IMG/VR virus record: IMGVR_UViG_2506381017_000002
From: a virus
Lineage: Duplodnaviria; Heunggongvirae; Uroviricota; Caudoviricetes
Length of the DNA stretch: 64,000 nt
Reading direction: 5' to 3' (one strand)
Shown: one piece after another, positions 26,296 to 64,000 of the stretch
Layout: each line of letters starts with the position of its first letter
Position numbering within the stretch: position 1 is the stretch's first letter
Notes under the pieces: model-generated
Database searches by the model: none
Seen by the model: only the letters and a program-made list of their open reading frames with translations
Told to the model about the DNA's origin: nothing
Translations under genes and position numbers: made by a program

Positions 26296-26440
26296 TTGAT
26301 CCTATACGCCAGAGGTAGGACTCGAACCTACAAAATCTATAGCATTTTGTGACTATGGAGTAGACGGGAGTCGAACCCGTGTCCAACCAAACCAGTTTCC
26401 AAATACATTTTAGACTTATTAGGATTATGTACTTAATTCT
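26296..26440 (-). other. two abutting tRNA-like elements of non-canonical structure
   Basis: T-arm-like CACGGG-TTCGACT-CCCGT plus CTACTCCA at ~26356-26400, directly followed by hairpin ACAAAAT-GCTATAG-ATTTTGT plus T arm GTAGG-TTCGAGT-CCTAC plus CTCTGGCG at 26307-26355. No matching 5' acceptor strands were found. Confidence 0.3.
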
Positions 26441-26791
26441 TAAATCAAAATAGTCACATAATCATTTTCCAAAGACTATTTTAATCGATCTAGTTTTAAT
26501 ACTTAGTCACACTTAAACTAGCAAATCATGAACTAAGACCAGAGGGGTGAAATGTGATAGCTAGTATCCTTATCTGGTATCAAGATATTAACCAAGTGCC
26601 TATAAGCTAGGCAGCTAAAGCTGTAACTCTATGGTTATTTGCTTTTATATTTAAATGAAAGTATTTCGGCGTTATCTTCCGTAAGTCGTATTTAGGGCTT
26701 TATTTGACTGTCGAATCCATAAACTACCCCAGAATAGAGCTTTAAATCATAGCTCCAAATAATAATTCAAATAGACTTCTTGATGAAGTCT

Positions 26792-26865
26792 ATAACATAG
26801 AAGGGATTTGAACCCTTGCTCTTACCCGCTAAGATAAAGCTCTACCAAGCTGAGACTTACTATGT
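26792..26865 (-). tRNA. tRNA-like gene (74 nt; perfect acceptor and T arm, internal arms not resolved)
   Basis: Acceptor AACATAG/CTATGTT 7/7, T arm AAGGG-TTCAAAT-CCCTT, D-loop-like CAGCTTGGTAGAGC. I could not fold the anticodon arm by eye. Confidence 0.45.
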
Positions 26866-27209
26866 TACTTATATATCAAAATATTTCTTGTGGTGGAACC
26901 CCTAACAGCTTTTGCCTTATTCCACATTTATTCCTACTAGCTTCATAGGATGGGCATAGTCCTTATCCCTGCTAAGGGGGCGCTGTCGTTACTCGCTGAA
27001 TATTTTAATATGTTCTTGTTAAGGGAGACTCATTTCAAGACCTCAACATCGGTCGGTTGAATGACTACTTACGCGCTAAGGATGTATACTATCCTTTCAT
27101 CATCTTCCCACCTGGTAGCTAACCCCACTCACGGATTCCGCACATGACTACGCTCCGTCAGCGAATATTGTACCTGTCTTTTATAAAATCCTGATTTTAA
27201 AAACCAGAA

Positions 27210-27282
27210 TGGACCTTGCAGGACTCGAACCTACGACCGAGCGGTTATGAGCCGCCTGCTCTACCAACTGAGCTAAAGGTCC
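27210..27282 (-). tRNA. tRNA-Met (anticodon CAT; could be Ile2 if lysidinylated)
   Basis: GGACCTT-TA-GCTC-AGTTGGTA-GAGC-A-GGCGG-CTCATAA-CCGCT-CGGTC-GTAGG-TTCGAGT-CCTGC-AAGGTCC-A gives a full canonical cloverleaf; no encoded CCA. Confidence 0.9.
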
Positions 27283-27428
27283 AAAATTTAGAGAACACGA
27301 TTAATCACTTCATGTTCTCAAAGTAACAAGGATAGTTGATTAGTCCTATCGCCGAGACGCCCATTCAAGTGCGTTGCTCTCCTTTACATACCAACCACTA
27401 CATTCAAAGCGTTGACGCTTGCTACTCT

Positions 27429-27515
27429 AACTACGAAGACAGGATTCGAACCTGCAACCTAGGATCAAGTTTTATCGGTGTACACCCCTATGCTCTAGCC
27501 AATTGAGCTACTTCG
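27429..27515 (-). tRNA. tRNA-like gene (~87 nt, long-variable-arm type; anticodon unresolved)
   Basis: Acceptor TACGAAG/CTTCGTA 7/7, D arm GCTC-AATTGGCTA-GAGC, T arm GCAGG-TTCGAAT-CCTGT; 36 nt between the D and T arms that I could not fold unambiguously. Confidence 0.4.
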
Positions 27516-27888
27516 TAAGAATAATGTCCACCCAGAAACGTTAGATGGTGAACTGATAAGTTAAGAGCTTGTTGACTGTGCTAAGTATCAGTCTGATTAC
27601 TCTTAGAGCTTATATCTTTTTGATGGACATTGACTTAGCAATTCTGTCCACGAATGATTAATTAGTAGGTTTACCACCAACCTACCTTGTAGAAACGCCG
27701 TTAAGCTTTCGTGGTCATGGTCACTCATTCTACTTTCACGGGGTTTGCCATGACACAAGCCGCTTGGTTTTTCTTAATAGCCTGACTAGGGCTACCAAAA
27801 TACAACAACTACCAATGGGCAGTGAAACGCCATGATTTAGGCGTATATCCAAATTCACTTGGTGTTCTCCTTGCATACCAAGGAGAAT

Positions 27889-27950
27889 AGCTTGGGAGGG
27901 AATTGAACCCTAAACGTACGCTGGCACCCTGCCATTATCACCAAGCCCCA
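27889..27950 (-). pseudogene. truncated tRNA-like element (~60 nt)
   Basis: Acceptor GGCTTGG/CCAAGCT and T arm TAGGG-TTCAATT-CCCTC, but only 26 nt between; no D or anticodon arms. Confidence 0.3.
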
Positions 27951-28800
27951 AACATAATACATGTATCGTTTTCGTTACTGTATTTTTACGTGCCAGTTGA
28001 AAACTGTTAATAAAAGTCGCAATGCACGGGCCCGTAGGCCATTGCCGTTTTGATAGGCTCGGCAACCTCTATATAAGACCGTTTTATTTTAACGGTGACG
28101 GTGCACCCCATCATTCAACCAATTAAGAGAGGGTTGATTCTCTCGACAATAACTGTCGATTAAGGAGTCAAGCTCCACGTTAATCTGATTAATCTTTAAC
28201 AAGACAGCCTCTTTCTTATCTGTCATACCTATTTCTTTTGCATTCACACGAACACCGAGGTGGGTAATTATTCTGTATTTCGAAGCCCTACGTGAGCCGT
28301 AATCAGATTTTATAAAAGAAGCATTTTACAGATGTATCTCCGTATGTTTATAGGGCTGGGCGCTGATTTAACAATATCTAGCCGATTTCAAGAGGTGATC
28401 AACCCCTCTAGCGCACTTGTTCATCGGGTATCCAACATGTCTCGTCCCGGGAAGCCCACACTTCCAGTGTAAGAGACTATATCTTCAAATACTTCCCGCC
28501 ATTAAATGACTTGCAATCTTATGTTTGTATTATTCAGGGTGTAGATTACTAGATCACCCGAACCCGCAACCTGAGAATTAAACCCAGCATTAACTTAGGC
28601 AATATCTGCATCGCAGGTAGTCGCACACGCAACCATAACAATAAGAAGCGTGGCATCAATCACATTACGAGCATTAGAAACTCCTCCAGTTGTGAGTAGG
28701 ATACCTCGTATAAATCACATTACTGCCATTTATACTCAAGCGCTTCAACCGACATACCTGTTGCCGGTTTTCCTATTATACATATCCATATAACAGAAAC

Positions 28801-28885
28801 ACCTAGAGAGGGATTTGAACCCCCGAACCCGAAGGAACGGTTTTGGAGACCGTCGCGTTTGACCAGACTTCGCTATCTAGGTATT
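28801..28885 (-). tRNA. tRNA with long variable arm and anticodon CCA (85 nt)
   Basis: ACCTAGA-TA-GCG-AAGTCTGGTCAAA-CGC-G-ACGGT-CTCCAAA-ACCGT-TCCTTCGGGTTC-GGGGG-TTCAAAT-CCCTC-TCTAGGT-G. The acceptor is a perfect 7/7, the D stem is 3 bp (class II like) and the variable arm is 12 nt. A UGG reader with class II architecture is unusual. Confidence 0.6.
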
Positions 28886-29037
28886 AATAACGTGCCATGC
28901 CAGCGTAAACACGTTATTAGATCGAATTGAAAAATGTAAAGGTAAAGGTATATGGAAAATATAACCTATTGAACATACGTTAGGTGTTTTTACATTCCAA
29001 ACGTTTTCCGTCATTTGGAACAACCTATTACTAGGAA

Positions 29038-29110
29038 TTTCGGTAATGGGAATCGAACCACATATCTACACTACATAATGTTGCTCTACCATTGAGCTAT
29101 ACCGAACCTT
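29038..29110 (-). tRNA. tRNA-like gene (T stem imperfect)
   Basis: Acceptor TTCGGTA/TACCGAA, D arm GCTC-AATGGTA-GAGC, anticodon-like ACATT-ATGTAGT..., but T stem TGTGG/CCCAT is mismatched. Confidence 0.3.
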
Positions 29111-29179
29111 GTCAAGATAAGACCACACATATCTTATCTGACTAACCAATCTTTCATATTTCGGAGGTGCTTAACCATG

Positions 29180-29260
29180 AAAGGAGTTCCCCAGCCCAAC
29201 CACTTAGCTGGGAATAACACAAAACGGAATCGAACCGCAGTGTGCCAACAAAAGTAGATA
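29180..29260 (-). other. tRNA-like fragment(s)
   Basis: CGG-TTCGATT-CCG T-loop-like motif and a D-loop-like GCTAAGTGGTTGGGC; no complete cloverleaf found. Confidence 0.2.
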
Positions 29261-29339
29261 AAAAGAAATGACAATTTATGAATCAACAATTTTTGATTAT
29301 CAAACACAGCACGTAAATGTTTAATAATTTCGGGCATTT

Positions 29340-29420
29340 CTGCCCTATGCGAAGCAGAGGAGTCGAACCTCTGTAAAGGACAAACATGGATGATTAAAAA
29401 TTAGAAAGGTGTGTTTGTAT
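29340..29420 (-). other. tRNA 3'-half-like element
   Basis: T arm AGAGG-TTCGACT-CCTCT plus acceptor 3' strand GCTTCGC-A; no matching 5' strand within 400 nt. Confidence 0.25.
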
Positions 29421-29500
29421 TATCAATTTAAAAGATATATAGGGAGTGTGTACTTCCAAAATGTACGTATTGCCTTTCCACTCTTCGCGATAGACCCACT

Positions 29501-29573
29501 TGGACTCGAACCAAGGTTGGTAGTTTAGAAGACTACTGTTCTATCCAGTTAAACTATAGGTCCATAATCAGGA
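29501..29573 (-). tRNA. tRNA-Arg (anticodon TCT)
   Basis: GGACCTA-TA-GTTT-AACTGGATA-GAAC-A-GTAGT-CTTCTAA-ACTAC-CAAC-CTTGG-TTCGAGT-CCAAG-TGGGTCT-A; all stems pair (two G-U wobbles in the acceptor); 73 nt. Confidence 0.85.
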
Positions 29574-52924: not shown

Positions 52925-53149
52925 TTAGTGTTCGATACGTAGGCACCACCAGTAGTTATCAACTACCGCTTGATTGATTACGTCATACTCCCACAACTTG
53001 TTGAATGTAAAAACTGCGATTGCGTCATTACATAAGCTCGCAATTCTAATACCCTTTTTGTCAGCTTTCGTTAAGACAAGTTCGATAAACTTATCAAGTT
53101 TCTTCTGGCTCGCTTTTGTCTTAAATTCATTCATTTTTATTTCCTCCAA
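52925..53149 (-). CDS. hypothetical protein
   Basis: 74 aa. Confidence 0.4.
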   Translation of the reverse strand: MEEIKMNEFKTKASQKKLDKFIELVLTKADKKGIRIASLCNDAIAVFTFNKLWEYDVINQAVVDNYWWCLRIEH

Positions 53150-53176
53150 GTGGTTAATTTATTTTCTGTTCAGTAA

Positions 53177-53524
53177 TTAATAGTGATAATTTCTTTTATT
53201 CTTAACGTTGACCAATTCAATACCATCAGCACCTTCACCTTGTTGACCCACAATTTTTTGTGATTTATCAGTAGGAACAACAACGAGGGTGTAGTCACCA
53301 TTGCCTTGGTCGTGGTACTCAACCTCGAAATTCTGAGTTTTAATAGTGTCGTCATTCTTGAGCGATAAATTTTTCTGTTTGTGACCAATAGTCTTACTAA
53401 TAATTTTTGCCTCACTGTGCATTGTGATTGCGTTTGAGTTGGCTTCATGCTTTGACATAATCCAGCCGGTAACGCTTACGATAGTTGTTAGGGTTAATAC
53501 GATTAGTGCAATATTTTTCTTCAT
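53177..53524 (-). CDS. secreted protein
   Basis: Signal peptide MKKNIALIVLTLTTIVSVTGWI. Confidence 0.45.
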   Translation of the reverse strand: MKKNIALIVLTLTTIVSVTGWIMSKHEANSNAITMHSEAKIISKTIGHKQKNLSLKNDDTIKTQNFEVEYHDQGNGDYTLVVVPTDKSQKIVGQQGEGADGIELVNVKNKRNYHY

Positions 53525-53564
53525 GGTTATTTATCCTCCGAGTGGTTGTATTGTGTGGTTGTGG

Positions 53565-53921
53565 TTAGTCTTCTAATTCTTCGATAGCATCATCAATCGC
53601 TTGACTTAATACATAGCAACGCAAGGAAACATCAATTGATTCATAGCAATCATCAAGCCACCATTCAGCAGTTTTTTGACGGTCCATAAACCCTTCATCA
53701 ATTGCTTCGCGGATTAAGTCCTTGTTATCATCAACGTATTCCTTGGCTTTGTTGGCGTTGAAAGTATATGATCCTGAGCCATTACCAGTTACAGAATCTT
53801 CGATCCAAAGTTGTTCGTTGAGTTCTTCACGATCAACCTCGTTGACATTGATTTCGTTGTCCTTGATGAAGTCGATTACATCGTTCTTAACATTTTCAAA
53901 GTAGTCATATTGTTGTGTCAT
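53565..53921 (-). CDS. acidic hypothetical protein
   Basis: 118 aa. Confidence 0.45.
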   Translation of the reverse strand: MTQQYDYFENVKNDVIDFIKDNEINVNEVDREELNEQLWIEDSVTGNGSGSYTFNANKAKEYVDDNKDLIREAIDEGFMDRQKTAEWWLDDCYESIDVSLRCYVLSQAIDDAIEELED

Positions 53922-53984
53922 GATATTTACCCCTCAATTAATATATTTTAGTATTTTTGTTGTGATTAATAGTGTAAGATTACA

Positions 53985-54197
53985 TTAGTTTAGCAAGTTC
54001 GTCAATAGTACCCGTAGAAGTGGTAAGGTCACTGCAATAACAATAACTGTAATGAATACAGCTAAAATACTGTACTTCTTGAACCTGATTAGCCTTTCGC
54101 TATCTCGTTCTAACTGCTTAATGTATTCAGGATCAACCAACTTGTAATCCTGTTCAGCGTATTTCTGTAGTTCCTTTTGTGACATCATAATTGTCAA
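53985..54197 (-). CDS. small membrane-anchored protein
   Basis: 70 aa with a C-terminal TM helix. Confidence 0.4.
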   Translation of the reverse strand: MTIMMSQKELQKYAEQDYKLVDPEYIKQLERDSERLIRFKKYSILAVFITVIVIAVTLPLLRVLLTNLLN

Positions 54198-54719
54198 AAC
54201 CTTTCTAATTTGCTTCAGCGGTTATTATTAATCGCTTTATATAGAGTCTTATCGTGTTGATAAGGCTCTCTAAAAACAATTAATAGTGTCTTTTTCACTT
54301 TCACAGGCTTAAACCAAGGAATATTAGCAAGTCCCTGCTGGTAGTATCACGGTGCCTTTATCTACTATTGATTAGGCGGTTGACGTGGAATCACCTCCCC
54401 CTACCGTACCGGGTTATTTACCAACTTTTGATATTGCGGAGTTGTTCTCAGTTCTACTGAAAGATTGAACCGCCGTTATTTTGTTTTCAAAGTTCAGCAT
54501 ATGTTGGTTTGAAAGTGATTGAGTATGCTCTCGCTCACACTGTCCGCCACCTTAACTTTTAGCTTGAATACAGTTATGGCTTTATCCTGCCCTAGGTGAT
54601 ATATGGAATCCTACACCCTTGCGGTTTATCAAGTTATTATGTTAAGCCTGTTCAGCCCGTTGACTTTTGCGACTTGTTAACGTTTTTTGAATTGGTAACT
54701 TTCCAATTAGTTTGAACAA

Positions 54720-55490
54720 TTTTATATAACATCGTAAGTTATATAAGGATAACCTTTTATTTCTTAATCGCTTCAAGGCTTGCGATTGCCTGCTCCTTTA
54801 TCGTGTCTTTATTATAACTTCCGATGTTATAATTGTCAAGACTTAATTTTTTGAATTGTAGCGGTTGACCTTGAAGTCAAAGTTAGATACTCAAGTGAAC
54901 TCACTTTCAATCCATTTATTAAGTTTGTGCTTTTTATTATAACTTCGTAAGTTATAAATTGTCAAGAAGTAAATTTGATTAATTTTTAATCACCTAGGCT
55001 AGTTCGATGACTGCTCTTTATTGTGATTGTCCTAATCAACTTTACGGCTTTATTATAACTTCCGATGTTATAAATGTCAATACCTTTTTCAAATTATTTT
55101 TGATACCTGGTATTTATTGCCGTTGTCCTTTTGACGATTCCAATTATAACATCGCAAGTTATAAAGTCAACTATTTTTTGTAAAAAAATAAGAGTAGTTA
55201 TAATAACTACTCTTGTAATTCTTTTAGGCGCTTATCTAATTCAATTTTAAACTCTTTCAAATCACTGATATAAGTATCTCTTATATCTATATTAGATTTT
55301 ATTAATTGATATAATCTTGTTTTAGATGATGGGCGAATAAAGCCCCCCGCCTCACTCTTACGCTTCCAATAGTAAGCTTTATCTGGATTAGCTTTTTCAT
55401 AATTCTTTTTTGCTTGTTTTTGTGCTTCACTAACCAAGACTTCACCTCCTTTTTACTTTATAACATGGTAAGTTATAAGTATTATACCAT
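54720..55490. repeat. array of six TTATAAC-N7-GTTATAA palindromic promoter/operator elements
   Basis: Copies at ~54731, 54810, 54943, 55076, 55144 and 55462. Several embed TGTTATAAT/TGTTATAAA extended -10 sequences, and several are followed by ATTGTCAAG. Confidence 0.6.
55207..55437 (-). CDS. small basic protein (TTG start), candidate regulator; inverted paralog of the plus-strand gene at 56715-56912
   Basis: AAAGGAGGTGAA RBS; one TTATAAC-N7-GTTATAA element sits between its -10 and its RBS. The C-terminus ...DKRLKELQE matches ...ERLKELKK in the paralog. Confidence 0.5.
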   Translation of the reverse strand: MVSEAQKQAKKNYEKANPDKAYYWKRKSEAGGFIRPSSKTRLYQLIKSNIDIRDTYISDLKEFKIELDKRLKELQE

Positions 55491-56714
55491 ACTCAACAGA
55501 AATAAAACTACACAATCAGTAATTGACTATTACAATACTTAAGTTTAAAATTGTTATATCTCCTTGAGTAAGGAGGTGACAACATGAAACATAATGAAAA
55601 AGAAAAGAAACAACCCTATAAGGCTTTTTACTTTGAGTGTAGCCTAATAAAGTTATTTCTTAAAATCATCATTATAAAGTAGTGTAATCACTTCCCTGAG
55701 TTGTTGTGTGACGGCTCAACCCAGGGAGATTTTTATTACAATTACATTATATCACAATTTATTGTGGTATTATATATTTGTTGATATGATATTACTAGAT
55801 TGTTATAATATAGATACAAGAAAACCCCTAAAGGTTGTTAACTTGTCCGTTAACCTTTAGGGCGGTGAGTTATTCACTACTTAATAATAAAGAATTTAAA
55901 GAATAATCTTAAAAGGCTGAACTCGCAATATACAACCTTAAAAGATTGTTCTTTTTTCTTTTTATTGTTCATGTTCCCACCCCCTTTCCTTAAGGGGTTA
56001 AAATAATTTAAACATCGTTATTTCTGAAAGTCAATAATTGAAAAAGAAAAAGCCAAAACGCAAAAGTAAAAAACGTTAAGGCTTAAAGGCTTAAAAGCTT
56101 ACATATTGAGGGAACGTGGCGCCGTTCCCTTTTTGTATAATTATCATATCATACTTACAACCCTAACAGAATAGAAAAATAACACCCCTTTATTTTTCTA
56201 TATAAGGAAGAAAAAACATAATAAAAAAACGATAAAGAAAAAAATAAATATACATGTTGACAACATGAAGAATTGTGTTATTATAATATACGTAAGCTAT
56301 TAATATAGTTTACAAGGCGACACACTAACAACAAATAATAAAGGTTTGAGGTGGTCAAATTGTATTCTATATTGTTGCATGCTGCAACCTTGTTTAGTTT
56401 GGTAAGTGGTGGAATTCTGGCGATAGTAACATCAATCGAAAAAGTTCTTATCATAAAAGAAAAAGCCCACAAGTCAGATAAGGACAAGGGGCAAAAATAA
56501 CTTACATTTATGAATATTTGGGAAGTGTTGCGACCACTTCCCTTTTTCTACAGTGTTATAATAACATAATAAAAAGGGTGTGACAATATGAAATGGATCA
56601 TATTAATTGGTCTATATCTTTTCGGGTTTGTTTGTCTAACGGTTGCGATCAAAAAGGCGAGAAAAATATATAATACTTTAAAGCATAATAAATAATTAAA
56701 ATAAATATAGAATT

Positions 56715-56912
56715 ATGGAAAACAAACAAAACAAAACAAGTAAAGCAAAATTACAAGCAAATAAACGCTATCAAGAAAGACATAAAAAAGAAGTTTATCG
56801 CAATCAGAAAAAATCTAGGGCGAAAAATTTTCTATTGAATGATGCAAGGATTGACGAACTAGAATTTTTTTCTGAATTAATTTCTGAAAGATTGAAAGAA
56901 TTAAAAAAATAA
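56715..56912 (+). CDS. small basic protein, inverted paralog of the minus-strand gene at 55207-55437
   Basis: 65 aa, K/R-rich then IDELEFFSELISERLKELKK. Confidence 0.45.
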   Translation: MENKQNKTSKAKLQANKRYQERHKKEVYRNQKKSRAKNFLLNDARIDELEFFSELISERLKELKK

Positions 56913-56939
56913 TAATAGTAATTAGGGTAATGCGTTAGT

Positions 56940-57620
56940 GTTTAGCGTGTTGCCCTTTTGTATTGTGGTTATATGATAACGCTTACATAGTGATGTATAG
57001 CAGTGTATAGGTATTACAGTGATATGTATATAGTAGCGTGCATAGTGTTGTTATGATAGTGATATATAGTAGTGTTATTTGTGTCTGTGTATAGATGTAT
57101 ATAGGTTAGTGAGTGAGTAGTGTTACATAGTGATATGCATAGTGAAGTAATATGATAGTGTAGTGATGTATATAATGTATTGAGTTAGTAACTGATTTAC
57201 GTTTGTAGATATTAGATTGTCAAGGCTGAGAGTGAGTGCGGTGTATGGGGTGTAGTGTGATTAGTATGTTTGATATATGATAATGTTTTCATATGTTATT
57301 GTAATGATATAGTAAGTGAGTAGTATATTGATATGTATGTATTGAGTGAGTAAGTAGGCGGATTGCGTGAGTGTGTTTGGTTAGTTAGTTATTATATTAG
57401 GGGTGTGTATTAAGTTACGTTTGTAAATTTTAAATTGTCAAGAGTGAATTTTTATGGTCTGGGTTTATTATTGTGTTGGTTGTGATATGTATTAGTTAGA
57501 TTTTATTTATTAGGGGTGTGGGTGAATTATTGGGCGGTGTTAGGTTAGGTAAACGGTTATTATATTAATTTATTGGGTGTTTGGTGTGGTGTGTGAGTAT
57601 GTGTGAACATTTGTTCATAG
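56940..57620 (+). repeat. cytosine-depleted GT/A-rich degenerate repeat tract
   Basis: About 2% C over ~650 bp on the top strand; reiterated GTGATA / TAGTG / GTATAG units; two copies of TTACGTTTGTA..ATTGTCAAG. Confidence 0.6.
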
Positions 57621-58099
57621 CAGATTATAATATATGAAATTTTGTTCATATGAATTAGTGAAAAGTACCCTACCCAGCCCACCAAAATAAATATATTAAG
57701 TTTACAACTGTAGCCCCTTATAAATAAAATTACCCCTTATCAAAAGATAGGGGCTTTCTTTTTCGATATTAAAATATTCTTGTAACCGTTTACACATAAC
57801 AACAACTATTATTGTGTCTTAAATTTGCAAATAGGCGGGGGTTATTTTACTCAAAACGCCTTAATTTTTAGGGAAAATTTTAGGGTAGTTGCTTCACTCA
57901 CACACCACAAAATTTTTTCCATTCACCCCATTTCTCGCACCCTATCACCCCTCAAATATCCCAATAAATTAATACCAAATTTAACCTTTTCAAAACTATG
58001 AAAATATCTTTCATAATCTTTCAACACAATATCCCTACCCATTCCTCTCACCCTTTCCCATTCAACTATAAATAAAGAGCCTAGGAATTACCCTAGACT

Positions 58100-58426
58100 C
58101 TAATTCATCTCATTATTAATATACTCTTCTAACCCAACTCTGGTCTCGTCATCTAAATTGGCAACATACTCCCTATATTTACTCAAATAGCCCTCATTAA
58201 TACTACTAATTACATATAATATATACCCTTCGTATAGACCATCTGGACACTTTAATAATCGCTGCATCAGTCTCATTAAATAGTAATACTGTTCATCATA
58301 ACCATCATTCATATATTTATTCTCAAATATATAATATGCAGTCCAAATAATATTATCGTCCCTATTTTCTAAACTGGATATACCCCATAGTTCCTTAATT
58401 ATAGTATCTAGTTTAATAATCTCCAC
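58100..58426 (-). CDS. hypothetical protein
   Basis: 108 aa, Tyr/Glu-rich. Confidence 0.45.
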   Translation of the reverse strand: MEIIKLDTIIKELWGISSLENRDDNIIWTAYYIFENKYMNDGYDEQYYYLMRLMQRLLKCPDGLYEGYILYVISSINEGYLSKYREYVANLDDETRVGLEEYINNEMN

Positions 58427-59857
58427 TGTCGTTTCCCCATTCTTATATTAAACGTATGTTCCCTTGTTATAATACACGAACGAATGTTCTTTATCAAGTA
58501 TTATCAGTAAATAGATACATATATCGCTTTATAGTACATTTTTATATTTATGTTCTTAATGCCATATACCCAATTATTCTGATTTATGAAAATATTGCGC
58601 ACCCAAAATAGCCATTTTTTGAAACAAAGAAAATTGCCTCTCGCTTTCATAACAATTATTTTCATAAAATTACTCAAAACTACCCTATTTTGCACCCAAT
58701 AAAATCTTCGAAACTCCCTATGAGGAATTCCTCAATTCACAAACTTTCGACTTCTACACAAACAACATTACTGAATTTAATTATACTTTGTGAATTTTTC
58801 TTCACTAATTCAAGAATTCAATTCTAAATAACTAAAATATGAACAAAAATTGTTATGAAAACATCGTTTTATGCATACCTAACTTATTTACGAAATAATC
58901 TGTCTTATTGTACAAAACTAAAAATTCATCATTCTTAATATTTCGCACCCTACTACTCATGTAACTAACCCTATCGAAACTCCCTATTTTTCATTTTGAT
59001 ATTTTTACTCAAATCACTGAATTTTTAACCAAAAAAAATGAACTAATACCAAATCCTATTTAATAGGATCTAGTAGTACTTTTTTATAATTATTATTCAC
59101 TTGAGACATTCATTAGTACATCTTCGATAATACAAGGGGTTTCAAACATCTAATTCCAGAAAATTTCACAAACTTAAAAAGGGTGCGGGGTATTTTTACT
59201 CTAATAACCTATAATTATATGTTTCGTATTGGTTCATTATTTCCACTCAGACTATTTTTCATAATTCCGCCGCCATCTATCCATTGTAATAGGAAGAAAA
59301 CCTCTATTTTCTATCACTGCTTTTATTGTCGCTTGTGAAGTCATCAAAAAATGCTGTTTCATTTTTATGTAACTATTCTCGCCTTCTTTTTCTCTTTAAA
59401 CACAGCCAAACACCAACGTAGAATGGAGTTAACGGGTCATAAATCAAAATTACATTAATTTATCTAAATCAGCTCTTAGCCCCATTATTCATTGTTCGTT
59501 TTGATTATTTATGAGCAATAATTATGTAGGTCAATTATTAAAACAGCTATTCCACAAGTTCCTTTAAATAAAAAACAGCGACAGTAAATACCACCGCTGA
59601 AATAATTACGGATTACTTACATAACCACTTACTAATCTTTTTAATTAAATGTTTAACGTGCTTATTAGGCACAATCAATATTATTAGACACCAATGCGTC
59701 ATAAAGGAGTTGCCTCCTTTCTGCACTAGTCGGGTTTCCTAAGCCCGCTCAAATGTGCCTAATTATTGTATCATATTTATTTTATGCTATAATATAGTTA
59801 TCAATATTATTAGGCCGTGTGATGTGGGTGCTTCCTAGCTCACGCATTGGTTTAACG

Positions 59858-59935
59858 TGGGGCGCCCTGATAGGCGCTCTTTTTTTTATTTAAAATAAAA
59901 GCCACAGTAACTAGTTTATCTGTTACTGTGGCTTT
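59858..59935. terminator. two consecutive rho-independent terminators
   Basis: GGGCGCC-CTGATA-GGCGCTC plus T8, then GCCACAGTAAC-loop-GTTACTGTGGC plus TTTT. Confidence 0.5.
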
Positions 59936-59997
59936 TCACATTTTATATTACTTTATATGTTTAATTCCGATTAAATCATATATAATCAGATTAAGTA

Positions 59998-60387
59998 TTA
60001 CGATAACATGTCTAAATTAGGCCTGTTTTTCAATTTAGAACTCAAAGAACTGTCATCAGTTTTAGAGTCATTATCGTTTTTCTTATTTCCAATTCTTGTC
60101 CTTAATTTGCGCTTGGGCTTTTCTTCAACATCGACATCATCATTCTCTTCTACCGACGTCTTTTCTTCTAGTTTTGAAACTGAGTTAATAGTACCTAACT
60201 GTCCATCTAAGCTTGCACTATCTAAAATAGCTTGGATAAGATCACCAGTTCCATATTTCCTAACTACCATTTCTAATGCCCTAATAGCAGCCGGAGAAAA
60301 TTGTGACTGGTTTTTAGACCATTCTGCAACTTTTGAATCCTCGGGAATAAGGATAGTTTTTCTAATCATTTTCGCCATAAAAATCAC
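59998..60387 (-). CDS. putative ParR-like centromere-binding adaptor (type II partition)
   Basis: Immediately downstream of the actin-like ATPase; N-terminal basic ribbon-helix-helix-like segment and acidic/Ser-rich tail. Confidence 0.4.
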   Translation of the reverse strand: MIFMAKMIRKTILIPEDSKVAEWSKNQSQFSPAAIRALEMVVRKYGTGDLIQAILDSASLDGQLGTINSVSKLEEKTSVEENDDVDVEEKPKRKLRTRIGNKKNDNDSKTDDSSLSSKLKNRPNLDMLS

Positions 60388-60392
60388 ACTCT

Positions 60393-61604
60393 CTATAAGG
60401 CTTCAACAATTACTTGTAATCCTAATTCATTTAAATATTGTGCATATTCCTTATCAATCCAAATTACTGGAACATCATATCCACCACTGAAGCTCTTAAG
60501 TTTTTCGTTCAATACTTCGCGAAGATTACTCTCATCTAGCATTGGAATGGAACCACCACCATATACGTAAACAAGTTCAGTATCCTTAGCGATACGCATT
60601 GTTTGACTAACTGTATCGATAATCTTGTCAGCTAATGGTTCTAATTGGTCGTAAACAACTTGACGTACTTTATCTTGGCGAGCTCGACGCAATGGACTGA
60701 CCTTTTCAGATAAGAAACTCTGTAATTGTGAACGTTCCTCAAAATTCATTTGTTGATCTTGAAGAACACGCACTGCATCTTGTAATACATTTCCGTATCC
60801 TTGTGGTAACGAAGCTGATGCTGCTGGATTAGCTTTACCGTTAATAATTGCTACTACATCAGTAGTCCCTTCTCCGATATCAATTCCAAGTACATTTCGT
60901 GAATTAATAAGGTCGTCAGCTCCAACTTCATCCTTCATTTCTGAATAGTTCTTATCAAAGTCTTCCTTAATTTTATCTGTTAATCCATCATAATCGGAGG
61001 AAATAAGCATTTGGGCTGTTTCACCTTCTAATGCAACATATACTTTATTAAATTCAATGGTTACATTAATTGGATCCTTAAAGTTATGGAAAGTTACTGT
61101 ATGCGTACTACCCATGTAACGTTCTTTGTAACGATCTTTTGCATTATTAACCTTACCTTCTGAAATAGGTAACGCAGTCGCCATATTAACTTTTACCTTT
61201 AGAGTCTCCTTTAAGTCTTGTCCAGCTTCATATGCTTCTTTTACTTTCTTTCCAGCTATCAAACTTAAAGTAAGAATAATTGCTAAATCTGTTTCTGATT
61301 TACCAGTAAAGTCATTAACATCAAAAGCCCTCATAGATAGACCACTGTCGATCGCAGCATTACCAATTAAAAATCTTCCAGAGGTTTTTACTGCATTACT
61401 TGACACACTAACGTCCATGTTATTAAGAAAGTTCTTCATATATGTATCTTGATCTTGTTTAGAATCAAATTCCATAGGAGCTTGTACATCTTGTGGACGT
61501 TCTGCTGCTATAACTGACGGAAACTTAATATTTTCACCATCAACATTTGCTTTTACAGAACCATATCCCAAATCATTTGCAACCTTCATAATCTTCTCAA
61601 CCAT
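60393..61604 (-). CDS. actin-like ATPase (ParM/Alp-family segregation protein)
   Basis: N-terminal phosphate-1 motif KVANDLGYGSVKA, later VLGIDIGEGTTDV and VYVYGGGS (actin-fold phosphate-2/adenosine motifs); 403 aa. Confidence 0.65.
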   Translation of the reverse strand: MVEKIMKVANDLGYGSVKANVDGENIKFPSVIAAERPQDVQAPMEFDSKQDQDTYMKNFLNNMDVSVSSNAVKTSGRFLIGNAAIDSGLSMRAFDVNDFTGKSETDLAIILTLSLIAGKKVKEAYEAGQDLKETLKVKVNMATALPISEGKVNNAKDRYKERYMGSTHTVTFHNFKDPINVTIEFNKVYVALEGETAQMLISSDYDGLTDKIKEDFDKNYSEMKDEVGADDLINSRNVLGIDIGEGTTDVVAIINGKANPAASASLPQGYGNVLQDAVRVLQDQQMNFEERSQLQSFLSEKVSPLRRARQDKVRQVVYDQLEPLADKIIDTVSQTMRIAKDTELVYVYGGGSIPMLDESNLREVLNEKLKSFSGGYDVPVIWIDKEYAQYLNELGLQVIVEAL

Positions 61605-61695
61605 TATTTCTACCTCCGATTTATAACATAATCATATTATATCATACTTAATACAAATTTAAGTGTAACTAAATAAGATATTTTATTTTTTTATA

Positions 61696-61704
61696 TGATA
61701 TAAT
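61696..61704 (+). promoter_or_regulatory. extended -10 promoter TGATATAAT (copy 5)
   Basis: Context TTATATGATATAAT in the parM upstream/centromere region; the hairpin AACGCT-TTGGT-AGCGTT at ~61803-61822 lies downstream. Confidence 0.3.
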
Positions 61705-61825
61705 CTTCTTTTTGATTACCACAATGTTAATAATACTATGTATTTAACATAATGTAAATAACATTTAACACTTTTAGAAAGTTTTATGAAGGCAAATAAA
61801 AAACGCTTTGGTAGCGTTTCATAGT

Positions 61826-62155
61826 TTACTTAAGGCTTTTAGACATGTAGTCCTTTTGCTCTAATATATTATACATTCTATCAAATCGAGTTTTTTCACT
61901 CTCGTTTAATTCAGCAATTTCACTCTCAATCATATGTTCGACAACTGCCTTTGCATTTTTTGCAACACCAAGATTAATTAAGGCAGAAACCTTATTACGA
62001 ATATGATTGTCAACACGTATATTAACTGGAAAGGACACTTCTTTATTGTCTGTTAAGATGTCTTCTTTTTTTGTTATCTCCTTGAATGATGGCTTTGCAT
62101 CTACCTCACTATTTTTCAAGGAATTCTTTGATTTAGCTGGCTTTGATATTGCCAT
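61826..62155 (-). CDS. small ParB/ParG-like centromere-binding protein (partner of ParA)
   Basis: 109 aa; overlaps the ParA stop; basic N-terminus and predicted RHH-like C-terminal region. Confidence 0.45.
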   Translation of the reverse strand: MAISKPAKSKNSLKNSEVDAKPSFKEITKKEDILTDNKEVSFPVNIRVDNHIRNKVSALINLGVAKNAKAVVEHMIESEIAELNESEKTRFDRMYNILEQKDYMSKSLK

Positions 62156-62967
62156 TATTCATGTGCCTCCTTAATACGCCCTAAAAGTTCAACTGCAACT
62201 TCTTTATAAACATTGAGAGTTTTTTTGTCCCATGCATCTCTATCTTCTGTAATACCTGTGACGTCATAATTTTTAGCTCTTTCCATAATCCTAATATGAC
62301 TATTAAAAACGTCAGCTCCCCATTCTTCTCTTGATTTTTCCAAAATCAATTGATCGACTTTAGCATTGTCTTTAGATAAAACAGGAACAACTGCTAATAC
62401 TTCTGTGTCAGCAATATACTCATCAATTATGTCGTCTTGAATATATTCAATAAAGTCTTTTGCATCGTCAAAAGCTCTTTGTTGAGTTTGAAGAACAATT
62501 ACTAATTCGTCACAAGCATACAAAGCTGTATCATTTTGTAAACTCAACGTAGGACTAACATCTATAAAAATGTAATCATACTTGTCCTTTATATCACTTA
62601 GCTTATTTTTAAAGGATGCGACACGCTCCTTTTCATTAAGATAAGCATGTTCAAGATATCTAGGATATAGATAAAAATCACTAGCAGTTGGGACAAGATA
62701 AAGATTATCCATTACCTGAACTGTAACATTATCCAAACTTTCATTATCTTTAATAGCGCTCATTAGCGTCTTGTTAAATGATAAAATCTCATCAGACTTT
62801 TGACTCTTTGTCTTTACCATCAATGTTGTCAAATCTGCCTGTGGATCAAAATCAATTAATAATACCTTATTCCCCATTTTTGCCAAACTATACGCTACCA
62901 ATGCAGTGGTCGTTGTCTTACCAACACCACCCTTTTGATTACACATTGAAATTACTTTTGCACTCAT
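62155..62967 (-). CDS. parA: ParA/Soj-family partition ATPase
   Basis: Deviant Walker A MCNQKGGVGKTTTTALVAYSLA; 270 aa. Confidence 0.85.
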   Translation of the reverse strand: MSAKVISMCNQKGGVGKTTTTALVAYSLAKMGNKVLLIDFDPQADLTTLMVKTKSQKSDEILSFNKTLMSAIKDNESLDNVTVQVMDNLYLVPTASDFYLYPRYLEHAYLNEKERVASFKNKLSDIKDKYDYIFIDVSPTLSLQNDTALYACDELVIVLQTQQRAFDDAKDFIEYIQDDIIDEYIADTEVLAVVPVLSKDNAKVDQLILEKSREEWGADVFNSHIRIMERAKNYDVTGITEDRDAWDKKTLNVYKEVAVELLGRIKEAHE

Positions 62968-62979
62968 TTCAATTCCACC

Positions 62980-63700
62980 TCACCTATTTATTAAGTACTA
63001 TAATATCAAACCTTTCGGATTGTGTTAAGTGTAATATGTAATGTATATTATATGAATCGCATAAAACTACACAAAAGTGTTAAATGTGATTTATATAATG
63101 CATAATGTGAAATATATTATTAATTATAAATTATGTATAAAACATATCCCATTATATATAATGTTTTTAATACTATACATAATGGGATATACACGACTTA
63201 TTAATATCTATTGACTTTTTAGGTTTTTGATGGGATTATCTACTTGTAACAACAAACTATCCAAATGTGTTACAGGTGAGAGTTATTTATATGATTGGCT
63301 CACACAAAACAATTTTATATCTGCCCGAAAATAAGTCACTATCAAAGTATATGTTCGTGAGATAGTGTTATTTAAGCGTGATTTAATATGGTTCACGCAA
63401 AATATATTGAACATTATTGTTATATTGCTATTTAAATTCGGGTATGGTATCTTATATTACATACCACAATAAGTGGTATTTTAGGCGAACCAAGTTTGAG
63501 AAGGATTAGGCACCCTTTGATAACTATTACAACTGAATAAAGAGTATAAAAAAAGACCCAACCATTAGGCATTTGGTTAGATCGACAAAAAACTTTTATT
63601 CATATATTGTATGTATTTATAATACCATACTTTGTCGATTAATCAATAGGTTGAGCTTGTTTTCTTATACTCATTTTCAAATAAATGATTAGGAGAAAAA
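62980..63700. repeat. AT-rich centromere/origin-like region with inverted and direct repeats
   Basis: ATATCCCATTATAT ... ATAATGGGATAT inverted repeat at ~63143-63195, and GTGTTAA(G/A)TGT(A/G)AT direct repeats at ~63023 and ~63078. Confidence 0.45.
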
Positions 63701-63703
63701 CAA

Positions 63704-64000
63704 TGAATAACCAAAAAGCATTTCTAGGTATCAACCTAGATTTACTCGAAAATCCCAAATATAAGAATCTAGACTCCCGTGCAATGATGTTGTACGCTCT
63801 TTACGCTGACCGCTATTCTGCATCAATGAATAACGCTCGTTTAGGGAATACTGCATTCGTTGATGATATGGGAGTTTTTATTCGTTTTACTAATGAATTA
63901 GCTGCCAAGGTACTTCACACAACAGCCAAAATGATTAGTAAATTTCGTAAGCAATTAGAATCAGAGAATTTAATTAAGATTGTTCGTGAAGGACTTAAGG
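63704..64000 (+). CDS. replication initiator / replisome organizer (RepA_N-type wHTH), 5' partial
   Basis: AGGAG RBS; FLGINLDLLENPKYKNLDSRAMMLYALYADRYSAS...GNTAFVDDMGVFIRFTNELAAKVLHTTAKMISKFRKQLESENLIKIVREG matches the RepA_N / phage replisome-organizer N-terminal pattern. Truncated by the window end. Confidence 0.7.

What the first reader, a model, noticed from the sequence alone, without database searches (positions are those of the whole stretch)
59998..64000. Plasmid-like maintenance block: type II (ParM/ParR) and type I (ParA/small ParB) partition systems plus a RepA_N initiator
Five features are packed within 4 kb. They are an actin-like ParM (phosphate-1 KVANDLGYGSVKA), a small downstream adaptor, a ParA (KGGVGKTTT) with an overlapping small centromere-binding-like gene, an AT-rich iteron/inverted-repeat region (ATATCCCATTATAT ... 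ATAATGGGATAT), and the start of a RepA_N/replisome-organizer initiator. The rest of the window is clearly phage-like (tRNA array, dNK, Tdk, helicases, clamp). Two different partition systems side by side suggests the element is maintained as a low-copy extrachromosomal replicon, i.e. a phage-plasmid, or uses cytoskeletal positioning of its DNA.
Basis: partly seen in the sequence, partly recalled or inferred. Interest (0 to 1): 0.7.

Follow-up and report, generated by a model that had tools for sequence, protein, structure and literature searches.

The report
Phage-plasmid replicon with two partition systems
This 4-kb block is the plasmid-style maintenance unit (a replication initiator plus two different DNA-segregation machines) of a ~127-kb virus-like element of the gut bacterium Limosilactobacillus reuteri that appears to live as a free circle instead of inserting into the chromosome; the block is real and well formed, but it is a new example of a known kind of element.

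Summary
They are an actin-like ParM with a small downstream adaptor, a type Ib ParA with an overlapping DUF5388 gene, a 22-nt-arm palindrome, and the 5' end of a RepA_N initiator.

The window is 100% identical over its last 11 kb to a 127,015-bp L. reuteri contig. On that contig a phage portal and a terminase-like gene follow repA. Colinear 129-139 kb relatives are deposited as plasmids, and one was closed as a circle by PCR. The exact ParA occurs in 307 blocks of the assembly index, never on a contig longer than 200 kb. A chimeric assembly is therefore excluded, and the phage-plasmid reading is supported.

The same block also sits on ordinary cargo plasmids with no phage genes, so it is a plasmid backbone and not lytic-cycle machinery. 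parM, parA and the parR 5' part are under strong purifying selection (dN/dS 0.006-0.03). The cumulative GC-skew minimum lies at parA/repA.

Two ParMR types and two ParA/ParB types occur in all four combinations. Each ParA/ParB cassette carries its own flanking inverted repeats.

Double par loci, RepA_N/ParA replicons and large ParM-bearing plasmid prophages are all known, so this is a new member of a known kind and of moderate interest.

The parts
59998..60378 (-). parR-like adaptor gene (126 aa from the ATG at 60378; an upstream GTG at 60387 gives 129 aa). It starts 15 nt after the parM stop.
   Evidence: Position and size are read directly from the sequence. There is no Pfam, NCBIfam or PHROG hit. 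The gene downstream of ParM in 11 Lactobacillaceae loci shares the same architecture: an N-terminal W..Q(D/N)NK..S...YG..D motif, a variable low-complexity linker, and a C-terminal D-x-x-M-(L/F)-S motif, with W20, Q24, G43 and D46 invariant and M124 and S126 nearly invariant. dN/dS of the N-terminal 58 codons against pLr03 is 0.006. The AF2 model has low confidence (pLDDT 59) with a coil-helix-helix pattern. The RHH fold is not shown.
60393..61604 (-). parM: actin-like (ALP) segregation ATPase, 403 aa.
   Evidence: Pfam ALP_N, MreB-like_C and Alp7A_like_C. PHROG 691 'partition protein' 7.8e-38. The family profile hits solved ParMs and an archaeal actin: 4xhp 5.3e-5, pCBH ParM 6ixw, Ta0583 2fsj, Dh-cParM1. 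Nucleotide-binding motif residues are invariant across 12 homologues: D11 G13 K18, D242 G244 G246 T247 D249, G349-G351. dN/dS is 0.027.
61605..61700 (-). parM promoter region and candidate parC.
   Evidence: A promoter-like site lies at 61669-61641. Three TATGAT(A/T) copies are present, two direct about 10 nt apart and one inverted; this is weak evidence. The equivalent region of relative pI has 5 x ATCATTCA in 11-bp-spaced pairs around the promoter. In FN041 it has GAAGTC/GACTTC copies at 11-bp spacing. The repeat sequence therefore changes with the ParR type.
61727..61788 (+). Downstream copy of the ~60-nt inverted repeat that brackets the parA-DUF5388 operon (candidate parS).
   Evidence: The local alignment with 63060-63123 (reverse complement) scores 53, against a maximum of 43 in 200 shuffles. 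The 14-mer CATTTAACACTTTT occurs only twice in the 64-kb window, at 61762(+) and 63073(-). The pair is present in every fetched locus that has this ParA/DUF5388 cassette, whatever its ParMR type, and is absent from the RepC-type loci.
61800..61820 (-). Terminator-like hairpin ending the parA-DUF5388 operon.
61826..62155 (-). DUF5388 gene (109 aa), the presumed centromere-binding partner (ParB role) of ParA.
   Evidence: Pfam DUF5388 1.3e-24. Translationally coupled to parA by an ATGA overlap. The conserved core is FPVNIRVDNHIRN..INLG. The AF2 model (pLDDT 61) has a disordered N-terminus, then coil(42-49)-helix-helix-helix. An RHH-like topology is inferred, not shown: Foldseek and PDB profile searches found nothing.
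62155..62967 (-). parA: type Ib Walker-type partition ATPase, 270 aa.
   Evidence: AAA_31 3e-40, CbiA, MipZ. Best NCBIfam hit is PrgP, 156.6 bits, below the equivalog cut-off of 400. Best solved relative is pSM19035 delta (2oze, 3.9e-26), followed by Soj and ParA proteins. It has the deviant Walker A motif KGGVGKT and no N-terminal DNA-binding extension. dN/dS is 0.007.
63000..63123 (-). parA promoter (63028-63000) and the upstream copy of the bracketing inverted repeat (63060-63123).
   Evidence: The promoter-like site TTAACA-17-TATTAT has a TG extension, and its -35 lies in a TTAACAC motif.
63144..63240 (.). Candidate operator or high-affinity site of the ParA/DUF5388 cassette.
   Evidence: ATCCCAT occurs 3 times here and 7 times in the whole window. 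The ATATCCCATTAT pair is found in all loci with this cassette, including JBR3 plasmid 2, which has a different ParMR. It is absent from RepC-type loci and from pI. At the same relative position pI has a different palindrome, GTGGTAAATA...TATTTACCAC.
63290..63702 (+). repA leader region. It contains a hairpin at 63555-63583 followed by a U-run on the - strand (candidate counter-transcript terminator).
   Evidence: The leader is 89% identical to FN041. The hairpin has a conserved loop TTAGGCA, while the stems differ between the window and FN041/pI. Its fold energy alone is not significant (z = -1.7). Antisense copy control is an inference.
63703..64000 (+). 5' part of repA (RepA_N-family initiator; full length 361 aa on the identical contig L008).
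   Evidence: Pfam RepA_N scores 30.2 bits for the fragment and 26.4 bits for the full protein, against a cut-off of 30. phmmer hits the solved RepA_N N-terminal domains 4pql, 5kbj, 4pta and 4pt7 at about 1.4e-4. The cumulative GC-skew minimum lies at 63-65 kb.
59576..59890 (.). Adjacent candidate type I toxin-antitoxin (post-segregational killing) locus: a 29-aa peptide ORF at 59613-59702 (-) with terminator 59599-59576, and a divergent ~90-nt sRNA at 59800-59890 (+).
   Evidence: The peptide MTHWCLIILIVPNKHVKHLIKKISKWLCK is conserved in pI and pLr03. The sRNA folds with z = -3.55. The sRNA-mRNA duplex is -59.5 kcal/mol, against shuffles of -41.2 +/- 4.6. Direct repeats create the complementarity (D5, D11, D13). 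There is no Rfam or Pfam match.

Best explanation
The block is the plasmid-type maintenance backbone of a ~127-kb temperate phage-plasmid of Limosilactobacillus reuteri. The element is a large siphovirus-like genome of the SPbeta / phiCD211 / lactococcal-949 kind.

RepA (RepA_N family) initiates bidirectional theta replication at or next to its own gene. Two independent operons read away from repA.

(i) parA-DUF5388 is a type Ib system. The small DUF5388 protein is inferred to bind the palindrome and the inverted ~60-nt repeats that bracket the operon. It would stimulate the Walker ATPase and repress the parA promoter.

(ii) parM-parR is a type II system. The adaptor is inferred to bind short repeats over the parM promoter through its N-terminal domain and to capture ParM filament ends through its conserved C-terminal D-x-x-M-(L/F)-S peptide.

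Together with an adjacent candidate type I toxin-antitoxin locus, these keep a low-copy circular prophage in both daughter cells.

Shown here: the gene identities, the operon layout, co-linearity with phage structural genes, presence of the same block on non-phage plasmids, purifying selection, the skew minimum at repA, and co-inheritance of the cis repeats with their cassette.

Inferred: DNA binding by the two small proteins, filament formation, copy number, virion formation, and any division of labour between the two par systems.
For: Gene identities.

Source and context: the window is 100% identical over 53001-64000 to L008 (GCA_009649645.1, contig of 127,015 bp). RepA is followed there by HU, a YonG_N protein, a terminase-like protein and a portal (phrog_2739, 1.4e-109), then a YonD_N protein. 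The portal's nearest phages are the C. difficile phiCD211/phiCDIF1296T group (5e-38), then lactococcal 949-type and staphylococcal SPbeta-like phages, all 113-135 kb. The C. difficile phages are circular extrachromosomal elements and carry parM (PMC5786514).

Relatives: the colinear FN041 plasmid (128.8 kb) has terminase, tape measure, holin, a PHP-domain protein (possibly the replicative polymerase) and primase. ATCC 53608 pI (138.5 kb) has the same five-gene order and was PCR-closed.

Extrachromosomal state: the exact ParA is indexed in 307 blocks, with 85 on 50-200 kb contigs and none above 200 kb.

Plasmid nature of the block: the same block is on pLr03 (83.7 kb, hdc and metal-resistance cargo, no phage genes) and on the two IMAUJBR3 plasmids.

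Functional constraint: dN/dS is 0.027 for parM, 0.007 for parA and 0.006 for the parR N-terminal part.

Origin: the cumulative GC-skew minimum is at 63-65 kb, and gene orientation switches there.

Cis sites: inverted repeats bracket the ParA/ParB operon in all four elements, each exceeding 200 shuffles. The palindrome and the 14-mer pair travel with the DUF5388 cassette only. The parM-upstream repeats differ with ParR type.
Against: Nothing here is experimental.

Neither small protein could be assigned a fold. AF2 pLDDT was about 60, and there were no Foldseek, PDB-profile or hhalign matches.

The candidate parC upstream of parM in the window itself is weak: three 6-7-nt copies.

The full-length RepA scores 26.4 bits against Pfam RepA_N, below the cut-off of 30. 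The origin itself was not located; the only candidate is one tandem 13-nt repeat inside repA, outside the window.

Virions, copy number and circularity of this exact element were not observed.

The phage part (~100 kb) and the backbone (~20 kb) are each contiguous on the circle, so a prophage carried by a plasmid cannot be excluded on topology alone.
Confidence: 0.8

Rival explanations
1. The element is a conventional L. reuteri plasmid that carries an integrated, possibly defective, SPbeta-like prophage. It would not be a phage that uses the plasmid state as its lysogenic form. The block would still be a plasmid maintenance module, but the 'phage-plasmid' label would be wrong.
For: The 2015 description of pI called the phage part an 'incomplete prophage'. 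The backbone is shared with ordinary plasmids. Tyrosine recombinase genes lie near one backbone/phage junction, at 43.3-45.8 kb. No virion data exist.
Against: At least four diverged lineages (window type, CP065541, FN041, pI) keep the phage-gene content (in the annotated records) and gene order at 79-93% nucleotide identity. No related free phage was found in 50,697 phage records by megablast, and no chromosome-sized contig carries the exact ParA. Skew and gene orientation of the whole element are organised around repA (PMC4667477 reports 98.8% of genes co-oriented with replication). IMG/VR lists the relatives as viral genomes, though that is a computational call only.
Confidence: 0.2
2. ParM/ParR is not a plasmid segregation system here. 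Instead it would be a phage cytoskeletal device acting in the lytic cycle, positioning or transporting replicating phage DNA as reported for AlpC/AlpA of the Corynebacterium prophage CGP3 or for the tubulin PhuZ. ParA/DUF5388 alone would handle plasmid partition.
For: The related C. difficile big phages carry parM, and their authors drew the CGP3 analogy. ParM-like proteins form a PHROG family.
Against: ParM/ParR cassettes 97-99% identical in ParM lie next to RepA on pLr03 and on IMAUJBR3 plasmid 1, neither of which shows phage genes in the regions examined. ParM homologues at 58-60% identity are on L. salivarius megaplasmids. The cassette is under strong purifying selection between the phage-plasmid and the cargo plasmid pLr03.
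Confidence: 0.08
3. The block belongs to a separate plasmid that was co-assembled with a phage contig (chimeric assembly).
For: None found.
Against: Identical junctions on both sides occur in isolate genomes, MAGs and metagenome assemblies from different projects. They also occur in three complete records, one of which was PCR-closed.
Confidence: 0.02

Closest known systems
L. reuteri ATCC 53608 megaplasmid pI (LN906635; Wegmann et al. 2015, PMC4667477)
   Same: Same element family. It has the same order adaptor-ParM-DUF5388-ParA / RepA, followed by HU and phage structural genes. It is 138.5 kb and circular by PCR.
   Different: The proteins have diverged: ParM 57%, ParA 58%, DUF5388 52% and RepA 52% identity, with different cis repeats. 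The paper described a 'RepA/ParA' megaplasmid with an incomplete prophage. It annotated the ParM and adaptor genes as hypothetical and attributed stability to a toxin-antitoxin pair.
Big 'plasmidial' siphophages of Clostridioides difficile (phiCD5763, phiCD211/phiCDIF1296T; PMC5786514)
   Same: They are ~131-kb circular extrachromosomal temperate siphoviruses with parM. They hold the closest phage portals to this element. A Clostridioides 136-kb record has a ParM at 28% identity.
   Different: The portal is only 28% identical. The searched passages of that paper mention no ParA/ParB system or RepA_N initiator in those phages. The host phylum branch also differs.
Double par locus of E. coli plasmid pB171 (par1 = ParMR, par2 = ParAB; own knowledge, Ebersbach and Gerdes 2001)
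   Same: A type II and a type I partition system lie side by side on one low-copy replicon, with cis sites in the region between them.
   Different: In pB171 the two operons are divergent and share a central centromere region. Here they are tandem and co-directional, the proteins are unrelated in sequence, the host is Gram-positive, and the replicon is a phage-plasmid.
pAD1 repA-repBC and pCF10 prgW-prgPO replicons of enterococci (own knowledge; NCBIfam PrgP model)
   Same: A RepA_N initiator is transcribed divergently from a small ParA plus a small DNA-binding partner. Cis repeats lie on both sides of the par operon. In relatives FN041 and IMAUJBR3 plasmid 1 the partner is annotated as RepC.
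   Different: ParA reaches only 157 bits against the PrgP equivalog cut-off of 400. The partner in the window is DUF5388, which shows no detectable similarity to the RepC-type partner. The window has no long 8-bp iteron arrays.
Type II ParMRC systems of Firmicutes (pSK41; B. thuringiensis pBMB67 BtParM; C. botulinum pCBH)
   Same: An ALP_N-type actin-like ATPase is followed by a small adaptor, with repeats at the promoter. Solved BtParM and pCBH ParM are the best PDB matches.
   Different: The matches are distant (E about 1e-3 to 5e-5). The adaptor has no detectable similarity to any solved ParR. Its family is very small: 8 representatives at 50% clustering among 1.84 billion proteins.
Archetypal phage-plasmids P1 and N15 (own knowledge; Pfeifer et al. 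2021, PMC7969092)
   Same: A temperate phage is maintained as a low-copy plasmid using a plasmid-type initiator and partition system, plus addiction modules.
   Different: P1 and N15 have a single type Ia ParAB/SopAB system. This element has a type Ib and a type II system, a RepA_N initiator, and an SPbeta-like virion and replication gene set.

Membership tests
Type II partition system (ParMRC) | Actin-fold ATPase with phosphate-1, phosphate-2 and adenosine motifs | tested here: met
   Pfam ALP_N, MreB-like_C and Alp7A_like_C. PDB profile hits to ParMs and Ta0583. Motif residues are invariant in 12 homologues.
Type II partition system (ParMRC) | Small adaptor gene immediately downstream in the same operon | tested here: met
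   A 126-aa ORF starts 15 nt after the parM stop. The arrangement and a conserved C-terminal motif recur in 11 loci from several genera.
Type II partition system (ParMRC) | Adaptor is a DNA-binding (ribbon-helix-helix) dimer related to known ParR proteins | tested here: inconclusive
   No Pfam or PDB similarity. The AF2 monomer has pLDDT 59. Foldseek gave no match.
Type II partition system (ParMRC) | Repeated centromere sites (parC) at the parM promoter | tested here: inconclusive
   The window has only three TATGAT(A/T) copies. Relatives are clearer: pI has 5 x ATCATTCA in 11-bp-spaced pairs, and FN041 has GAAGTC repeats.
Type II partition system (ParMRC) | ATP-dependent filament formation that pushes plasmids apart | not testable with these tools
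   Needs biochemistry or imaging.
Type Ib ParA/small-ParB partition system | Deviant Walker A motif (KGGxGK[ST]) ATPase of about 200-300 aa without an N-terminal DNA-binding domain | tested here: met
   KGGVGKT at residues 12-18 of 270 aa. AAA_31 3e-40. The closest structure is pSM19035 delta, 2oze, 3.9e-26.
Type Ib ParA/small-ParB partition system | Small partner gene downstream, co-transcribed | tested here: met
   A DUF5388 gene of 109 aa overlaps the parA stop codon. The pair is conserved in pLr03, IMAUJBR3 plasmid 2 and pI.
Type Ib ParA/small-ParB partition system | Partner is a ribbon-helix-helix centromere-binding protein | tested here: inconclusive
   The AF2 model has pLDDT 61 and a coil-helix-helix-helix pattern after a disordered N-terminus. 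There are no Foldseek or PDB matches.
Type Ib ParA/small-ParB partition system | Cassette-specific repeated cis sites near the operon | tested here: met
   Inverted repeats bracket the operon in 4 of 4 elements, each above all 200 shuffles. The palindrome and the 14-mer pair co-occur with the DUF5388 cassette only. The RepC-type cassette has different TTGCA-rich repeats on both sides. Binding itself was not tested.
PrgP/PrgO of pCF10 (NCBIfam equivalog NF041283) | Score at or above the curated equivalog cut-off (400 bits) | tested here: not met
   156.6 bits. It is related to PrgP but is not an equivalog. The partner has no NCBIfam match.
RepA_N replication initiators | N-terminal RepA_N winged-helix domain | tested here: inconclusive
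   Pfam gives 30.2 bits for the fragment and 26.4 bits for the full length, against a cut-off of 30. phmmer matches the solved RepA_N domains 4pql, 5kbj, 4pta and 4pt7 over residues 10-103 at 1.4e-4. Homologues are annotated 'replication initiator protein A'.
RepA_N replication initiators | Origin inside or next to the rep gene | tested here: inconclusive
   The GC-skew minimum is at 63-65 kb. One tandem 13-nt repeat lies in the centre of repA on L008, outside the window. No origin was mapped.
Phage-plasmid | Phage structural and packaging genes and plasmid replication/partition genes on one replicon | tested here: met
   Portal and terminase-like genes lie 5-9 kb beyond repA on the identical contig. 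The full structural module is present in the colinear FN041 record.
Phage-plasmid | Extrachromosomal circular prophage state | tested here: met
   Indirect for this element: no contig above 200 kb among 307 index blocks. Direct for relative pI: PCR closure. Relatives pI, pLr03 and the IMAUJBR3 plasmids are deposited as circular plasmids, while FN041 is recorded as linear.
Phage-plasmid | Production of infectious virions | not testable with these tools
   No induction or virome evidence is available. IMG/VR membership is computational.

The most novel reading that the evidence does not exclude
An SPbeta-like giant siphovirus of L. reuteri has adopted, and keeps exchanging with ordinary cargo plasmids, a ~20-kb RepA_N backbone. 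The backbone's two partition cassettes (two ParMR types and two ParA/ParB types, each with its own cis sites) are shuffled combinatorially as incompatibility determinants. This would let a phage-plasmid and sibling plasmids with nearly identical initiators share one cell: RepA is 97% identical in the two co-resident IMAUJBR3 plasmids, which differ at both par loci.
Probability: 0.4. Interest if true: 0.55.

Novelty: new member of a known kind. Interest (0 to 1): 0.4.

Why it matters
L. reuteri is a widely used probiotic and a model gut symbiont. A 127-139 kb phage-plasmid is common in it: the exact ParA is indexed in 307 blocks of the assembly collection. Yet it has been treated as a 'megaplasmid with an incomplete prophage'.

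Recognising its maintenance module gives three things. It gives a compact candidate for stable low-copy vectors in lactobacilli. It explains how so large an element is inherited. It also offers a natural system for asking why some replicons carry both an actin-type and a Walker-type segregation machine, because natural variants carry all four cassette combinations and some of them co-reside in one strain.

It also documents gene flow between plasmids and phage-plasmids in a Gram-positive gut species.

Tried and rejected
Searches that found nothing useful:
- Megablast of the block and of 25 kb of context against 50,697 phage records gave no match.
- Rfam, at gathering thresholds on the whole window and at E <= 1 on 53.9-64 kb, found nothing in the block and only tRNAs and a tmRNA elsewhere.
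- AF2 models of the ParR-like adaptor and of DUF5388 had low confidence (pLDDT 59 and 61). Foldseek against the PDB returned nothing usable.
- HMM profiles of both small proteins against PDB sequences gave no meaningful hits.
- hhalign between the two adaptors showed no relationship.
- An exhaustive HMMER search with the adaptor profile found only 8 representatives, so it cannot be linked to a named family.

Ideas rejected:
- The six-copy palindrome array at 54.7-55.5 kb is not a centromere of either par system. Its sequence does not co-vary with ParR or ParB type, and it does not occur in the block.
- My first pattern for that palindrome had the wrong spacing.
- An alignment of pLr03 flanks was set up in the wrong orientation and was ignored.

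Literature: ten full-text searches found no paper that calls these L. reuteri elements phage-plasmids or that mentions DUF5388. The supplements of Pfeifer et al. 2021 were not available.

Full report
**Observation**

The last 4 kb of the window contain four genes on the - strand and one on the + strand.

- 60393-61604 encodes a 403-aa actin-like protein. It matches Pfam ALP_N (1.9e-10), MreB-like_C (1.9e-11) and Alp7A_like_C, and PHROG 691 'partition protein' (7.8e-38). A profile of 12 homologues matches solved ParMs and the archaeal actin Ta0583. The nucleotide-binding motif residues are invariant.
- A 126-aa ORF (59998-60378) starts 15 nt downstream. It has no family match.
- 62155-62967 encodes a 270-aa ParA with the deviant Walker A motif KGGVGKT. 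Its closest solved relative is the delta protein of pSM19035 (2oze, 3.9e-26), so it is type Ib.
- The parA stop codon overlaps the start of a 109-aa DUF5388 gene (61826-62155; 1.3e-24).
- From 63703 a RepA_N-type initiator runs off the window. The fragment scores 30.2 bits and the full protein 26.4 bits against a cut-off of 30. It matches solved RepA_N domains at 1.4e-4.

No tandem iteron array was found.

**Where the block sits**

The window's last 11 kb are 100% identical to a 127,015-bp contig of an L. reuteri isolate assembly (L008). Beyond the window that contig continues with the rest of repA, two hypothetical genes, HU, a YonG_N protein, a LAGLIDADG-like ORF, a terminase-like protein, a portal (phrog_2739, 1.4e-109) and a YonD_N protein.

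The portal's nearest phages are the 131-kb C. difficile phages phiCD211/phiCDIF1296T. Next come lactococcal 949-type, Mammaliicoccus and staphylococcal SPbeta-like phages. The C. difficile phages are circular extrachromosomal 'plasmidial' siphoviruses that carry parM (PMC5786514).

At the DNA level the window matches only L. reuteri plasmid records and no phage record.

- FN041 'unnamed1' (128.8 kb) is colinear with the window. It carries terminase, a 9-kb tape-measure gene, holin, a PHP-domain protein (possibly the replicative polymerase), primase and ligase.
- ATCC 53608 pI (138.5 kb) has the same five-gene order and was closed by PCR.

The exact ParA protein is indexed in 307 blocks of the assembly collection, never on a contig above 200 kb. 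IMG/VR lists the relatives as viral genomes. A chimeric assembly is therefore excluded, and the phage-plasmid interpretation is supported. Virions have not been shown.

**The block is a plasmid backbone**

pLr03 is an 83.7-kb circular plasmid with histidine decarboxylase, metal resistance, restriction-modification genes and IS elements, and no phage genes. It carries the same adaptor-ParM-DUF5388-ParA/RepA block at 92% nucleotide identity. It also shares the ArdA and toxin-antitoxin region to the left and the two hypothetical genes and HU to the right.

Two ~99-kb circular plasmids of strain IMAUJBR3 have the same architecture. An L. johnsonii 127-kb plasmid has a ParA-small gene-ParM-small gene tandem. 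L. salivarius megaplasmids carry the ParM/adaptor pair at about 59% identity.

This argues against a lytic-cycle cytoskeletal role for ParM.

Both systems look functional. Between the window and pLr03, dN/dS is 0.027 for parM, 0.007 for parA and 0.006 for the adaptor's N-terminal part.

The cumulative GC-skew minimum falls at 63-65 kb of the extended window. Gene orientation flips there and again near 14 kb. This fits bidirectional replication from the repA locus and matches what was reported for pI.

**Cis elements and modularity**

A comparison of six elements shows two ParM/adaptor types (M1, M2; ParM 52-57% identical between types) and two ParA/partner types (A1 with DUF5388, A2 with a 'RepC'-annotated partner; ParA 34-35% identical, partners unrelated). 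All four combinations occur.

| Element | ParMR type | ParA/ParB type |
|---|---|---|
| window | M1 | A1 |
| pLr03 | M1 | A1 |
| IMAUJBR3 plasmid 1 | M1 | A2 |
| IMAUJBR3 plasmid 2 | M2 | A1 |
| FN041 | M2 | A2 |
| pI | M2' | A1' |

CP065541 has a ParM 99% identical to the window's and a RepC-annotated partner, which suggests M1 + A2. The two IMAUJBR3 plasmids co-reside in one strain. Their RepA proteins are 97% identical, but they differ at both par loci.

Each ParA/ParB operon is bracketed by an inverted repeat that exceeds all 200 shuffles in all four elements tested. In the window this is 63060-63123 against 61727-61788. Its core 14-mer CATTTAACACTTTT occurs only at these two places in 64 kb.

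They are absent from A2 loci. A2 loci instead have TTGCA-rich repeats on both sides.

Upstream of parM the short repeats change with the adaptor type. pI has 5 x ATCATTCA in 11-bp-spaced pairs, FN041 has GAAGTC/GACTTC, and the window has only weak TATGAT copies.

The adaptor family shares an N-terminal motif and a C-terminal D-x-x-M-(L/F)-S motif across genera. By analogy with R1 ParR (own knowledge), this would be the ParM-binding peptide.

The folds of the two small proteins could not be established.

**Mechanism**

RepA_N-driven theta replication is combined with a type Ib and a type II partition system and an adjacent candidate type I toxin-antitoxin locus (59576-59890). Together these maintain a low-copy circular prophage.

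- Shown: gene identities, operon layout, replicon context, selection, and cassette-linked cis repeats.
- Inferred: DNA binding, filament dynamics, copy control (a hairpin with a conserved loop and differing stems in the repA leader), and virion production.

**Comparison and novelty**

Several related arrangements are already known:
- Double par loci, as in pB171 (own knowledge).
- RepA_N/ParA replicons with flanking repeats, as in pAD1 and pCF10 (own knowledge). The PrgP model scores only 157 of the 400 bits required.
- ParM-bearing plasmid prophages of about 131 kb.
- Phage-plasmids in general (PMC7969092).

The family itself has been sequenced and partly described as a megaplasmid. Not found in the searched literature are its recognition as an SPbeta-like phage-plasmid, the ParM/adaptor system, and the combinatorial exchange of both par cassettes with ordinary plasmids.

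I rate it a new member of a known kind, with interest 0.4.

Noticed in passing
window 54712-55480 (also L002 31048-31495, L001 2633-3015, L014 2737-3103): Six copies of a 21-nt palindrome (TTATAACWT-NNN-AWGTTATAA) are spaced about 88-125 bp apart. Most sit in the spacer of a - strand TTGACA-17-TATAAT promoter, upstream of the ArdA-containing operon. Chance expectation is 0.08 copies. The same array architecture and spacing is conserved in FN041, pLr03 and pI, but the palindrome sequence differs in each element. This looks like a tandem array of repressor-controlled promoters with element-specific operator specificity. The regulator is unknown, and the sequence does not co-vary with ParR or ParB type.
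   Followed up: partly
window 56960-57620 and 57660-58100: About 650 bp are almost free of C on the + strand (GC skew up to +0.36), with degenerate ATAGTG/TAGTGA-like repeats. A C/A-rich stretch follows (skew -0.50), and several inverted repeats link the two halves. The whole 54-60 kb stretch has only three small called genes. The region is conserved in FN041 (89%), but no match was found in pLr03. Its function is unknown (an alternative origin, a packaging site or non-coding transcripts are possible).
   Followed up: partly
window 59576-59890: A candidate type I toxin-antitoxin locus lies next to parR. It has a conserved 29-aa hydrophobic/basic peptide whose RBS sits in a hairpin, and a divergent structured ~90-nt sRNA. 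Direct repeats make the sRNA 5' end complementary to the peptide's start and coding region. It matches no Rfam or Pfam family, and it is also present on other L. reuteri plasmids.
   Followed up: partly
window 25958-29563: The element encodes a tmRNA (26353-26730, tag ANNHRVTALAA) and seven tRNA matches. One, at 27430-27518, is reported by ARAGORN with a four-base anticodon 'tgta' and has an unusually long anticodon-arm region.
   Followed up: no
window 63555-63583 and the aligned positions in L002 and L014: A hairpin in the repA leader is followed by a U-run on the - strand. Its loop (TTAGGCA) is conserved, while the stems differ between the window and FN041/pI. It could be the terminator or target loop of an antisense copy-control RNA, as in other RepA_N plasmids. 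Fold energy alone is not significant.
   Followed up: partly
L026 and L027 (NZ_CP139477.1 and NZ_CP139476.1): Two ~99-kb circular plasmids of one strain (IMAUJBR3) share the same replicon cluster and have 97% identical RepA proteins. They carry different ParM/ParR and different ParA/ParB cassettes.
   Followed up: partly
L032 (Limosilactobacillus allomucosae, contig of 2,332,244 bp, positions 1,024,735-1,033,946): A ParM (56% identity) plus adaptor pair lies on a chromosome-sized contig, with no ParA or RepA in the 9 kb fetched. It may be an integrated plasmid remnant.
   Followed up: no
window 5806-7326, 10267-10890, 24384-25121; L002 6347-7090: The element carries a set of nucleotide and NAD salvage genes: an NAPRTase-family protein, thymidine kinase and deoxynucleoside kinase, plus PnuC and a nucleoside deoxyribosyltransferase in the colinear relative.
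   Followed up: no
L005 3327-4286: A LAGLIDADG-type homing-endonuclease-like ORF (faint Pfam hits) lies just upstream of the terminase-like gene. It is split into two ORFs in some assemblies (L006, L011).
   Followed up: no
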